From Escherichia coli (GTDB taxonomy: Bacteria; Pseudomonadota; Gammaproteobacteria; Enterobacterales; Enterobacteriaceae): DNA of 64,000 nucleotides. Positions 20,499-23,400 of this stretch are shown here, piece after piece. Each line of letters begins with the position of its first letter. The stretch's first letter is position 1. The stretch lies in NCBI RefSeq assembly GCF_001677475.2, contig NZ_CP015229.1; one strand, given 5' to 3'. Position numbers: made by a program.

Positions 20499-23400
20499 TA
20501 ATTTCTTGCGTTATTTTCGGCACCTTTTATGTAGCGAAGGTGCCGGAATATATTCTCTTTTGTTACTTATTTGTATACCGTGCACAATATTTTTATCCCT
20601 CATATTTATAGGGTAAATTACCTGTAAAGTAGTGTCTAATTACCCGCCTCGCAAATTCCAGTTTTCAAATATCTATTTCAGGTCAAAAGATTGAATTATT
20701 CACTGGAGACGATTCGTAAATTCGCTGGATTTTTGACTAAAGTTTCTTTAGGATTTGTCTCATCGTATGATTAATTACACCAATCGTTCAACGTCTTGCT
20801 GATAAGTGATGACGATTATATGAGGTTAGCAATGCCTTCTGGAAATCAGGAACCCCGCCGCGATCCTGAATTAAAACGTAAAGCCTGGCTGGCGGTTTTT
20901 CTTGGTTCTGCACTTTTCTGGGTGGTTGTCGCACTGCTGATTTGGAAAGTGTGGGGATAACTATGGTCGGTCAGGAGCAACTGGAGTCGTCACCATTATG
21001 CCAGCATAGTGACAATGAACCAGAAACGAAACGGGAATGTTCCGTCGTTATTCCAGACGACTGGCAACTAACATCGCAGCAGCAAGCCTTTATAGAACTG
21101 TTTGCTGAAGACGATCAGCCGAAACAATAATTATCATCATTTTTATTACCCATTTTTAATGAATTAAAGGGCTTTTAATACACCGCAGCAATAACAGGTT
21201 GAGTTATCTCAACACAAAGTCATAACCGTTAAGGGTGTAGCCTATGATCAACACAAATATGAAATATTGGTCCTGGATGGGCGCGTTTTCTCTGTCGATG
21301 CTCTTCTGGGCCGAACTCCTCTGGATCATTACTCACTGATCCTTGACCCCGCTGCGGCGGCGGTTTTCATTTGCTTTGCCACACGGTTTCTCCTCTTTTA
21401 TCAATTTGGGTTGTTATCAAATCGTTACGCGATGTTTGTGTTATCTTTAATATTCACCCTGAAGAGAATCAGGGCTTCGCAACCCTGTCATTAAGGAGGA
21501 GCTATGTCGTCAACCCTACGAGAAGCCAGTAAGGACACGTTGCAGGCCAAAGATAAAACTTACCACTACTACAGCCTGCCGCTTGCTGCTAAATCACTGG
21601 GCGATATCACCCGTCTACCCAAGTCACTCAAAGTTTTGCTCGAAAACCTGCTGCGCTGGCAGGATGGTAACTCGGTTACCGAAGAGGATATCCACGCGCT
21701 GGCGGGATGGCTGAAAAATGCCCATGCTGACCGTGAAATTGCCTACCGCCCGGCAAGGGTGCTGATGCAGGACTTTACCGGCGTACCTGCCGTTGTTGAT
21801 CTGGCGGCAATGCGCGAAGCGGTTAAACGCCTCGGCGGCGATACTGCAAAGGTTAACCCGCTATCACCGGTCGACCTGGTCATTGACCACTCGGTGACCG
21901 TCGATCGTTTTGGTGATGATGAGGCATTTGAAGAAAACGTACGCCTGGAAATGGAGCGCAACCACGAACGTTATGTGTTCCTGAAATGGGGAAAGCAAGC
22001 GTTCAGTCGGTTTAGCGTCGTGCCGCCAGGCACAGGCATTTGCCATCAGGTTAACCTCGAATATCTCGGCAAAGCAGTGTGGAGCGAATTGCAGGACGGT
22101 GAATGGATTGCTTATCCGGATACACTCGTTGGTACTGACTCGCACACCACTATGATCAACGGCCTTGGCGTGCTGGGGTGGGGCGTGGGTGGGATCGAAG
22201 CAGAAGCCGCAATGTTAGGCCAGCCGGTTTCCATGCTTATCCCGGACGTAGTGGGCTTTAAACTTACCGGAAAATTACGTGAAGGTATTACCGCCACAGA
22301 CCTGGTTCTCACTGTTACCCAAATGCTGCGCAAACATGGCGTGGTGGGGAAATTCGTCGAATTTTATGGTGATGGTCTGGATTCACTACCTCTGGCGGAT
22401 CGCGCCACCATTGCCAATATGTCGCCAGAATATGGTGCCACCTGTGGCTTCTTCCCAATCGATGCTGTAACCCTCGATTACATGCGTTTAAGCGGGCGCA
22501 GCGAAGATCAGGTCGAGTTGGTCGAAAAATATGCCAAAGCGCAGGGCATGTGGCGTAACCCGGGCGATGAACCAATTTTTACCAGTACGTTAGAACTGGA
22601 TATGAATGACGTTGAAGCGAGCCTGGCAGGGCCTAAACGCCCACAGGATCGCGTTGCACTGCCCGATGTACCAAAAGCATTTGCCGCCAGTAACGAACTG
22701 GAAGCGAATGCCACGCATAAAGATCGCCAGCCGGTCGATTATGTTATGAACGGACATCAGTATCAGTTACCTGATGGTGCTGTGGTCATTGCTGCGATAA
22801 CCTCGTGCACCAACACCTCTAACCCAAGTGTGCTGATGGCCGCAGGCTTGCTGGCGAAAAAAGCCGTAACTCTGGGCCTCAAGCGGCAACCGTGGGTCAA
22901 AGCGTCGCTGGCACCGGGTTCGAAAGTCGTTTCTGATTATCTGGCAAAAGCGAAACTGACACCGTATCTCGACGAACTGGGGTTTAACCTTGTGGGATAC
23001 GGTTGTACCACCTGTATTGGTAACTCTGGGCCGCTGCCCGATCCTATCGAAACGGCAATCAAAAAAGGCGATTTAACCGTCGGTGCAGTGCTGTCCGGCA
23101 ACCGTAACTTTGAAGGCCGTATCCATCCGCTGGTTAAAACTAACTGGCTGGCCTCGCCGCCGCTGGTGGTTGCCTATGCGCTGGCGGGAAATATGAATAT
23201 CAACCTGGCTTCTGAGCCTATTGGTCATGATCGTAAAGGCGATCCGGTTTATCTGAAAGATATCTGGCCATCGGCACAAGAAATTGCCCGTGCGGTAGAA
23301 AAAGTCTCCACAGAAATGTTCCGCAAAGAGTACGCAGAAGTTTTTGAAGGCACAGCAGAGTGGAAGGAAATTAACGTCACACGATCCGATACCTACGGCT

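What the first reader, a model, noticed from the sequence alone, without database searches (positions are those of the whole stretch)
21244..21339. Possible unannotated 31-aa hydrophobic small protein between yciX and acnA
ATG with an AAGGGTG Shine-Dalgarno-like sequence upstream encodes MINTNMKYWSWMGAFSLSMLFWAELLWIITH*, which is Trp-rich with a single TM-like helix, typical of small membrane proteins. It lies in the acnA promoter region. It may correspond to a small protein already found in K-12 by ribosome profiling, but I cannot confirm the name from memory.
Basis: seen in the sequence. Interest (0 to 1): 0.35.

Follow-up and report, generated by a model that had tools for sequence, protein, structure and literature searches.

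The report
Known small membrane protein gene ymiC
The 31-codon reading frame is real, but it is the already named and tested E. coli gene ymiC, a tiny membrane protein made under magnesium starvation, so it is not a new gene.

Summary
The ORF is at 21244-21339 (+) and encodes the stated peptide. It is not unannotated. It is ymiC, "small membrane protein YmiC", annotated by RefSeq in the E. coli genomes listed. It matches curated models NCBIfam NF041484 (66 bits, cut-off 42) and Pfam PF23694 (87.5 bits, cut-off 27).

The peptide is identical to K-12 YmiC. That protein was detected by chromosomal epitope tagging in 2018. Later work showed it is induced by low Mg2+ through PhoQP as the last gene of a ymiA-yciX-ymiC operon, and that it sits in the membrane. 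Deleting or overexpressing it gave no phenotype.

My own test in about 67 distinct Enterobacteriaceae sequences agrees that it is coding:
- The core-to-stop length is fixed at 78 nt, with no in-frame stops.
- Variation is highest at third codon positions.
- pN/pS is lowest in this frame.
- acnA lies 137-230 nt downstream in almost all loci.

A hairpin plus T-run follows the stop codon in 66 of 72 lineages, with compensatory stem changes.

The same interval is also Rfam RF02079 "STnc180". That was a Salmonella sRNA candidate which its authors judged to be a processed mRNA, and its consensus encodes an intact YmiC.

Verdict: observation confirmed, gene already known, biochemical role still unknown, low interest.

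The parts
21244..21339 (+). ymiC coding sequence: 31 codons plus TGA, encoding small membrane protein YmiC
   Evidence: ORF. DNA is 100% identical to the K-12-derived J53 ymiC CDS. NCBIfam NF041484 66.3 bits (cut-off 42), Pfam PF23694 87.5 bits (cut-off 27). Peptide identical to the published YmiC. Codon-level constraint shown.
21231..21237 (+). Shine-Dalgarno-like AAGGGTG, six nt upstream of the ATG
   Evidence: Read from the sequence. GGTGT is conserved at this position in most genera (alignment A3). GGUG is complementary to the CACC of the 16S rRNA 3' end (established knowledge).
21345..21373 (+). GC-rich hairpin plus T-run right after the ymiC stop; probable intrinsic terminator of the ymiA-yciX-ymiC unit
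   Evidence: Consensus scan hit at 21349-21363 followed by TTTTCATTTG. Fold energy -12.6 kcal/mol. An equivalent hairpin plus T-run occurs in 66 of 72 distinct homologous loci, against 2% of shuffles and 6 of 72 in the next 80 nt, with 20 different stem-core sequences. 7 of 10 pairs change on both sides. Differs from K-12 by one inserted C and one G-to-T change.
21171..21374 (+). Full-length match to Rfam RF02079 'STnc180'; contains the ymiC leader, CDS and terminator
   Evidence: 193.1 bits against a gathering score of 50, model positions 1-208 of 208. The Rfam consensus translates to an intact 31-aa YmiC-like protein scoring 72.2 bits on PF23694. Sittka et al. 2008 saw 500-2000 nt signals and called it a likely processed mRNA.
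21198..21213 (+). Leader hairpin GTTGAG-TTAT-CTCAAC between yciX and ymiC
   Evidence: Present in both the MFE and centroid folds. Stem sequence differs between genera while pairing is kept; 4 of 5 pairs change on both sides. Function unknown.
21177..21194 (+). Conserved leader block AATACACCGCAGCAATAA
   Evidence: Conserved columns in the 55-sequence alignment A3. Rfam pairs ACACC with the GGUGU at the ribosome-binding site, but folding does not support this and the pair counts show little compensatory change.
20820..20960 (+). ymiA, first gene of the reported ymiA-yciX-ymiC operon
   Evidence: NCBIfam NF000536 96.8 bits, Pfam PF22868 125.9 bits. K-12 annotation. Operon assignment from PMC11429745.
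20963..21130 (+). yciX, middle gene of the operon
   Evidence: K-12 annotation 'protein YciX'. No Pfam or NCBIfam model matches it. A gene of about 56 aa is called at this position in three of the four divergent lineages examined.
21504..24179 (+). acnA (aconitate hydratase A), the downstream neighbour
   Evidence: 891-aa ORF, annotation. An ORF starting MS(S/L)[12 protein letters not shown] lies 137-230 nt after the ymiC stop in almost all homologous loci.

Best explanation
This is ymiC, a known gene. It encodes a 31-residue single-pass inner-membrane protein. It is the last cistron of the ymiA-yciX-ymiC transcription unit, which PhoQ-PhoP switches on when Mg2+ is scarce. Translation starts at the ATG at 21244, six nt after a GGTG-type ribosome-binding site. 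A GC-rich hairpin plus T-run a few bases after the stop codon most likely ends the transcript, which separates the unit from the acnA-proximal region. Shown, here or in the literature: the ORF, its identity with K-12 YmiC, protein synthesis, membrane localisation, PhoQP- and low-Mg2+-dependent expression, purifying selection on the peptide, conserved gene order, and the conserved terminator-like element. Inferred: like other PhoQP-induced small membrane proteins such as MgrB and MgtS, YmiC probably acts by binding a larger inner-membrane protein through its conserved helix residues (W11, F15, S18, W22, L25, plus a mid-membrane E/Q24). I put that mechanism at about 50%. No partner or phenotype is known. 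The confidence given below is for the gene identity and its protein-coding nature, not for the partner-binding mechanism.
For: ORF and peptide. Annotated as ymiC (WP_001310756.1, 'small membrane protein YmiC') at the homologous position in a K-12 derivative, with identical DNA. The region is present in at least 5394 of 5426 complete E. coli genomes, and ymiC is annotated in all 25 listed. Curated models are passed well above cut-off. VanOrsdel 2018 lists ymiC between yciX and acnA with this exact 31-aa sequence among immunoblot-confirmed small proteins. [quoted passage not shown] Independent sequence evidence: an exhaustive HMMER search gives a small family sharing KYWSW..F..S.LFW.(E/Q)L.W. 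All four divergent representatives lie in topA-cysB-ymiA-(yciX)-ymiC-acnA. About 69 loci from some 20 Enterobacteriaceae genera carry an intact ORF. In 67 distinct sequences the core-to-stop length is always 78 nt with no stop. Entropy at codon positions 1/2/3 is 1.16/0.64/1.55 bits over 16 codons that the search pattern did not fix. pN/pS is 0.54 in frame, against 0.87 and 1.93 in the other two frames, which carry stops in 28 and 9 sequences. One unconstrained Ser codon is invariant as a residue while its third base varies. Terminator.
Against: No function is known; deletion and overexpression gave no phenotype in the conditions tested. The homologous loci were found with a pattern built from the conserved core, so the set is biased toward conservation. 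I limited the statistics to unconstrained codons, but the sequences are phylogenetically related and pS is near saturation. The genome scan was not exhaustive: the E. coli representative itself was not returned. In K-12 Term-seq no 3' end was called at the ymiC hairpin, so termination there is not shown in E. coli, whose T-run is degenerate (TTGTCATTT in K-12, TTTTCATTT here). The partner-binding mechanism rests on analogy only.
Confidence: 0.96

Rival explanations
1. The interval is a non-coding small RNA, STnc180 (Rfam RF02079), and the ORF inside it is incidental.
For: Full-length Rfam match at 193 bits over 21171-21374. The leader hairpin and the terminator show compensatory changes.
Against: The authors who named STnc180 found no small RNA on Northern blots. 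They saw 500-2000 nt signals and called it a likely processed mRNA. The Rfam consensus itself encodes an intact YmiC. Variation follows codon periodicity, and the frame is free of stops and indels in 67 distinct sequences. The Rfam helices placed inside the coding region consist mostly of invariant codon positions, and 20-45% of cells are unpaired where they vary. The protein has been detected.
Confidence: 0.03
2. ymiC acts mainly as a regulatory upstream ORF for acnA. A ribosome finishing ymiC covers the 5' arm of the terminator hairpin, so ymiC translation sets how much transcription from upstream promoters reads through into acnA. The peptide could still have its own role.
For: Adams et al. 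2021 list ymiC-acnA among validated small ORFs with a 3' end less than 200 nt downstream, as candidate uORF regulators. The innermost 6-bp GC core of the hairpin starts 7-13 nt after the stop codon in 57 of 66 lineages, which is within reach of a terminating ribosome (the footprint size is established knowledge). No 3' end is called at the hairpin in K-12, which fits leaky termination. From my own memory of Cunningham, Gruer and Guest 1997, which I could not retrieve, a distal acnA promoter lies about 407 nt upstream of the acnA ATG, near 21097. That would put ymiC on the long acnA leader.
Against: The 3' end Adams et al. recorded is at K-12 1335835, at the acnA start codon and after a different hairpin (window 21470-21487), not at the ymiC terminator, and it was not Rho-dependent. 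A short distance between a stop codon and a terminator is common at operon ends. I looked for no alternative antiterminator structure. The peptide sequence is under purifying selection and the protein localises to the membrane, which a pure leader peptide does not need. acnA expression was not examined in the ymiC deletion.
Confidence: 0.12
3. The ORF is a chance reading frame in an intergenic region and is not translated.
For: Many ORFs of 20-75 aa occur by chance in the same stretch.
Against: Epitope-tagged protein has been detected, ribosome-profiling initiation signals are reported, and a GFP fusion goes to the membrane. The frame is conserved across genera with a coding substitution pattern.
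Confidence: 0.01

Closest known systems
YmiC of E. coli K-12 (gene ymiC; WP_001310756.1; NCBIfam NF041484; Pfam PF23694)
   Same: Identical 31-aa sequence and identical 96-nt coding DNA. Same neighbours (ymiA, yciX upstream; acnA downstream). Same ribosome-binding site.
   Different: Nothing in the gene itself. The flanks carry a few SNPs, and the downstream hairpin has one extra C and a better T-run than K-12.
STnc180 (Rfam RF02079), Salmonella sRNA candidate
   Same: Same sequence interval: the Rfam model covers the ymiC leader, coding sequence and terminator end to end.
   Different: The Rfam label says sRNA gene. The evidence says it is the 3' part of a protein-coding mRNA. Only the leader hairpin and the terminator have support as RNA structure.
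PhoQP-induced small membrane proteins MgrB and MgtS
   Same: Similar size, a single transmembrane helix, induced by low Mg2+ through PhoQ-PhoP, membrane-localised.
   Different: No sequence relationship. MgrB and MgtS have known partners and phenotypes; YmiC has neither.
Translated upstream ORFs that control downstream transcription (for example MdtU upstream of mdtJI, or the pyrBI leader)
   Same: A short translated ORF upstream of a metabolic gene, with a terminator-like hairpin close to its stop codon.
   Different: No demonstrated effect on acnA. The peptide is a conserved membrane helix. The only mapped 3' end nearby is at the acnA start codon, not at the ymiC hairpin.

Membership tests
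YmiC (NCBIfam NF041484 equivalog / Pfam PF23694) | Scores above the curated cut-off of the family model | tested here: met
   NF041484 66.3 bits against 42; PF23694 87.5 bits against 27.
YmiC (NCBIfam NF041484 equivalog / Pfam PF23694) | Same sequence as the experimentally validated K-12 protein | tested here: met
   All 31 residues match the sequence in VanOrsdel 2018. The coding DNA matches J53 ymiC at all 96 bases.
YmiC (NCBIfam NF041484 equivalog / Pfam PF23694) | Conserved genomic position: downstream of ymiA/yciX, upstream of acnA, same strand | tested here: met
   Window. K-12. Four divergent lineages. About 60 further species with acnA 137-230 nt downstream.
YmiC (NCBIfam NF041484 equivalog / Pfam PF23694) | The reading frame is under coding constraint | tested here: met
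   Fixed 78-nt core-to-stop length and no stops in 67 distinct sequences. Codon-position entropy 1.16/0.64/1.55 bits. pN/pS 0.54 against 0.87 and 1.93 in the other frames.
YmiC (NCBIfam NF041484 equivalog / Pfam PF23694) | The protein is made and sits in the membrane | not testable with these tools
   Literature only, for the identical K-12 sequence: SPA-tag immunoblot, Ribo-RET and peripheral GFP-YmiC fluorescence.
Rfam RF02079 STnc180 (sRNA) | Scores above the family gathering threshold | tested here: met
   193.1 bits against 50, full-length match.
Rfam RF02079 STnc180 (sRNA) | Consensus secondary structure supported by compensatory changes | tested here: inconclusive
   The leader hairpin (4 of 5 pairs) and the terminator (7 of 10 pairs) change on both sides. 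The helices inside the coding region and the ACACC/GGUGU helix are not convincingly supported. The MAFFT alignment is not structure-aware.
Rfam RF02079 STnc180 (sRNA) | Exists as a discrete, non-coding small RNA | not testable with these tools
   Sittka 2008 found no small RNA species, only 500-2000 nt signals, 'likely processed mRNA'. The consensus encodes YmiC.
Intrinsic (Rho-independent) terminator | GC-rich stem-loop directly followed by a T-run | tested here: met
   Window 21345-21373. Present in 66 of 72 homologous loci against 2% of shuffles.
Intrinsic (Rho-independent) terminator | RNA 3' ends map to the T-run | not testable with these tools
   The K-12 Term-seq tables held here list no + strand 3' end between 1333823 and 1335835. 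The conditions used were not low Mg2+.
Regulatory uORF / leader-peptide attenuator | uORF and regulated gene lie on one transcript | not testable with these tools
   Rests on my memory of a distal acnA promoter (Cunningham et al. 1997), which I could not retrieve.
Regulatory uORF / leader-peptide attenuator | The terminating ribosome can reach the terminator stem | tested here: met
   The innermost 6-bp GC core starts 7-13 nt after the stop codon in 57 of 66 lineages. This feature is also common at ordinary operon ends.
Regulatory uORF / leader-peptide attenuator | Translation of the uORF changes expression of the downstream gene | not testable with these tools
   No data found. Adams 2021 lists ymiC-acnA only as a candidate.

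The most novel reading that the evidence does not exclude
The ymiC unit (also known as STnc180) does two jobs. Besides encoding a membrane peptide, its translation controls the conserved hairpin a few bases after its stop codon, and so sets how much transcription from the PhoQP-activated ymiA promoter, or from a distal acnA promoter, continues into acnA. That would link Mg2+ limitation to aconitase A levels.
Probability: 0.1. Interest if true: 0.45.

Novelty: already known. Interest (0 to 1): 0.08.

Why it matters
As a discovery it does not matter, because the gene has been named, annotated, modelled and tested. It does show that a reader working from raw sequence alone can pick out a genuine small-protein gene. 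Two by-products may be useful. First, Rfam family RF02079 (STnc180), labelled an sRNA, is the ymiC mRNA segment and should be read as coding. Second, ymiC is followed throughout the Enterobacteriaceae by a conserved terminator-like hairpin, and preceded by a covarying leader hairpin. These give concrete handles for testing whether the unit influences acnA. YmiC's biochemical role remains an open, though modest, question.

Tried and rejected
I used the exhaustive representative search and a degenerate DNA pattern scan instead.
- My first yciX coordinates were off by one.
- The first codon script assumed 75 nt instead of 78 and failed. The first terminator script chose the wrong T-run and crashed. 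Both were rewritten.
- A pair count on hairpins that I had already selected for perfect pairing would have been circular. I used shuffles and neighbouring segments as controls instead.
- The PhoP-box pattern search with three mismatches was uninformative: 182 hits against about 132 expected, and only 3-mismatch hits upstream of ymiA at 20734-20761. I make no claim about a PhoP site.
- The consensus promoter scan found no + strand promoter near ymiC.
- Cunningham et al. 1997, on the acnA promoters, is not held, and two other papers gave no promoter coordinates. The distal acnA promoter position therefore rests on memory only.
- SD sequestration by ACACC/GGUGU (Rfam helix 1) is not supported by folding.
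- The overlapping ORFs (75 aa on +, 41 aa and 35 aa on -) have no family matches.
- L033 and L061 were rejected as chance pattern matches. L027 and L083 were treated as contaminated or mislabelled records.

Full report
**Observation**

The window has an ATG at 21244 and a TGA ending at 21339 on the + strand. The product is MINTNMKYWSWMGAFSLSMLFWAELLWIITH. AAGGGTG lies at 21231-21237, six bases before the ATG.

The neighbours are cysB, ymiA (20820-20960), yciX (20963-21130) and acnA (21504-24179).

The ORF alone is not statistically notable. One search lists many ORFs of 20-75 aa in the same stretch on both strands, and the three largest overlapping ones match no protein family.

**Identity**

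A 901-bp query around the ORF matches 5421 of 5426 complete E. coli genomes, 5394 of them over at least 80% of its length. Every listed hit carries the feature "ymiC: small membrane protein YmiC".

In the K-12 derivative J53 the ymiC CDS (WP_001310756.1) sits at the homologous position. It is identical to the window at all 96 bases, while the flanks differ by several SNPs and one indel.

The peptide passes two curated family models with room to spare:
- NCBIfam NF041484, "small membrane protein YmiC", equivalog: 66.3 bits against a cut-off of 42.
- Pfam PF23694, "YmiC-like": 87.5 bits against 27.

**Published evidence**

- VanOrsdel et al. 2018 (PMC6001520) list ymiC between yciX and acnA at K-12 1335572-1335667, 31 aa, with exactly this sequence. 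It is among the small proteins confirmed by chromosomal epitope tagging and immunoblot. They note it was also an unidentified positive in a tetracycline ribosome-profiling screen.
- PMC11429745 reports several findings. YmiC is among 17 small proteins whose initiation signal rises in low Mg2+ (Ribo-RET). Reporter activity depends on PhoQ and comes from the region upstream of ymiA, with negligible activity just upstream of ymiC, hence a ymiA-yciX-ymiC operon. GFP-YmiC is at the cell periphery. Neither deletion nor overexpression gives a phenotype.
- Adams et al. 2021 (PMC7815308) list ymiC-acnA as a candidate uORF arrangement.

**Independent sequence test**

An exhaustive HMMER search of 1.84 billion representatives found only ten, all short. 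They share the core KYWSW..F..S.LFW.(E/Q)L.W. The four most divergent are each encoded in topA-cysB-ymiA-(yciX)-ymiC-acnA.

A degenerate DNA pattern built from conserved first and second codon positions returned 73 loci from species-representative genomes:
- About 69 are genuine. They come from Enterobacter, Kosakonia, Citrobacter, Lelliottia, Leclercia, Cedecea, Siccibacter, Franconibacter, Atlantibacter, Trabulsiella, Buttiauxella, Yokenella, Phytobacter, Pluralibacter, other Escherichia species and others.
- Two are chance matches, and two look contaminated or mislabelled.
- Almost all genuine loci have an ORF starting MS(S/L)[12 protein letters not shown], which is AcnA, 137-230 nt downstream.
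- The list is not exhaustive, because the E. coli representative itself was not returned.

Across 80 loci (67 distinct sequences), one search gave these results:

| Measure | Result |
|---|---|
| Length from the K codon of KYWSW through the stop | always 78 nt |
| In-frame stops | none |
| Entropy at codon positions 1 / 2 / 3 (16 codons not fixed by the pattern) | 1.16 / 0.64 / 1.55 bits |
| pN/pS in the ymiC frame | 0.54 |
| pN/pS in the other two frames | 0.87 and 1.93 |
| Sequences with stops in the other two frames | 28 and 9 |

One unconstrained Ser codon is invariant as a residue while its third base varies. This is the signature of a coding frame under moderate purifying selection. Three caveats apply: the loci were found by a conserved pattern, they are phylogenetically related, and pS is near saturation.

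**Terminator**

A GC-rich hairpin and T-run follow the stop codon (window 21345-21373).

| Segment tested with the same finder | Hairpin plus T-run found |
|---|---|
| 80 nt downstream of the ymiC stop | 66 of 72 distinct sequences |
| Shuffles of those sequences | 30 of 1440 (2%) |
| The next 80 nt | 6 of 72 |
| 80 nt upstream of ymiC | 16 of 72 |

Twenty different stem-core sequences keep the pairing. On the Rfam-derived structure, 7 of 10 terminator pairs change on both sides.

The innermost 6-bp GC core begins 7-13 nt after the stop in 57 of 66 lineages.

In Escherichia the T-run is weaker than in other genera: TTGTCATTT in K-12 and TTTTCATTT here.

The K-12 Term-seq tables list no + strand 3' end between 1333823 and 1335835. 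The end they link to ymiC-acnA is at the acnA start codon, after a different hairpin (window 21470-21487). Termination at the ymiC hairpin is therefore inferred from conservation and has not been shown in E. coli.

**The sRNA label**

Rfam RF02079, "Enterobacterial sRNA STnc180", matches 21171-21374 full-length at 193 bits. That interval is the ymiC leader, coding sequence and terminator.

Sittka et al. 2008 found no small RNA for STnc180. They saw 500-2000 nt signals on agarose Northern blots and called it a likely processed mRNA. That size range fits an operon mRNA of roughly 600 nt.

The Rfam consensus translates to an intact 31-aa protein that scores 72.2 bits on the YmiC Pfam model.

Mapping the Rfam structure onto a 55-sequence alignment gives a split result:
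- Compensatory change supports the leader hairpin (window 21198-21213; 4 of 5 pairs) and the terminator.
- The helices drawn inside the coding region consist mostly of invariant codon positions, and 20-45% of cells are unpaired where they vary.
- The ACACC/GGUGU helix, which would mask the ribosome-binding site, is not in the minimum-energy fold. The leader as a whole folds no better than shuffles, with a z-score of -0.09.

**Mechanism**

Shown:
- a translated small membrane protein;
- induced by low Mg2+ through PhoQP as the last gene of its operon;
- conserved across the Enterobacteriaceae together with a terminator-like element.

Inferred:
- In the family profile, W11, F15, S18, W22 and L25 are spaced i, i+4, i+7, i+11, i+14, so they line one face of a helix.
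- A polar E/Q24 is conserved in mid-membrane.
- This suggests helix-helix packing with a partner membrane protein, as for MgrB and MgtS. I give it about 50%.

The main alternative is that ymiC translation tunes read-through into acnA. It is not excluded. I give it about 10-12%. It depends partly on my unverified recollection of a distal acnA promoter about 407 nt upstream of the start codon; the paper could not be retrieved.

**Verdict**

The feature is already known, so interest is low.

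Noticed in passing
window 21171-21374 (+): Rfam RF02079 'STnc180', labelled an sRNA gene, is the ymiC leader, CDS and terminator. Its consensus encodes an intact YmiC. The family label is misleading for annotation pipelines.
   Followed up: yes
window 21198-21213 (+), with the conserved block at 21177-21194: A hairpin in the yciX-ymiC spacer keeps its pairing while its stem sequence changes between genera (TTGAG/CTCAA, CTGAG/CTCAG, CTGCC/GGCAG, GGGG/CCCC). It is preceded by a conserved AATACAC..CAGCAATA block. In 16 of 72 lineages it is followed by a T-run. Function unknown; it could be a processing or stability element, or a partial terminator.
   Followed up: partly
window 21470-21487 (+), acnA 5' UTR: Hairpin CAGGGCTTCGCAACCCTG just upstream of the acnA ribosome-binding site. 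The only K-12 Term-seq 3' end in this region (1335835) maps just after it, at the acnA start codon, and was scored as not Rho-dependent.
   Followed up: partly
window 10000-34000: The best identity to any of 5426 complete E. coli genomes is only 98.2% over 24 kb (98.9-99.0% over the 901 bp around ymiC). The window is therefore not K-12 and may come from Shigella or a divergent Escherichia lineage.
   Followed up: no
window 21345-21373 compared with K-12 (L001 about 2146-2172): The terminator hairpin differs from K-12 by one inserted C in the 3' arm and a G-to-T change that improves the T-run (TTGTCATTT to TTTTCATTT).
   Followed up: partly
P0001 (63 aa): A natural variant in which YmiC runs on for 32 extra residues. 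It seems to have lost the stop codon and part of the terminator hairpin, and continues in the frame of the window's 21343-21450 ORF.
   Followed up: no
L027 and L083: L027 is a 454-bp, 1.3x-coverage contig in a Terrisporobacter mayombei assembly that carries E. coli-identical ymiC, so it is likely contamination. L083 is a 'Chryseobacterium sp. 18061' contig carrying an Enterobacteriaceae ymiC-acnA locus very like Citrobacter sp. 18056 (L073) from the same project, so it is likely mislabelled or contaminated.
   Followed up: partly
H1, H2 (NZ_CP173524.1, NZ_CP194907.1): In these E. coli strains the match to the ymiA-ymiC-acnA region is split into two pieces by an IS1A insertion. The exact insertion point was not examined.
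   Followed up: no
L009-L011, L040 (Yokenella-type loci): No yciX gene is called between ymiA and ymiC in this lineage, although the spacing is similar. yciX also has no Pfam or NCBIfam model.
   Followed up: no
window 7112-7205 (-): Tryptophan operon leader (Rfam RF00513, 93 bits), as expected for the trp-topA-cysB-acnA region.
   Followed up: no
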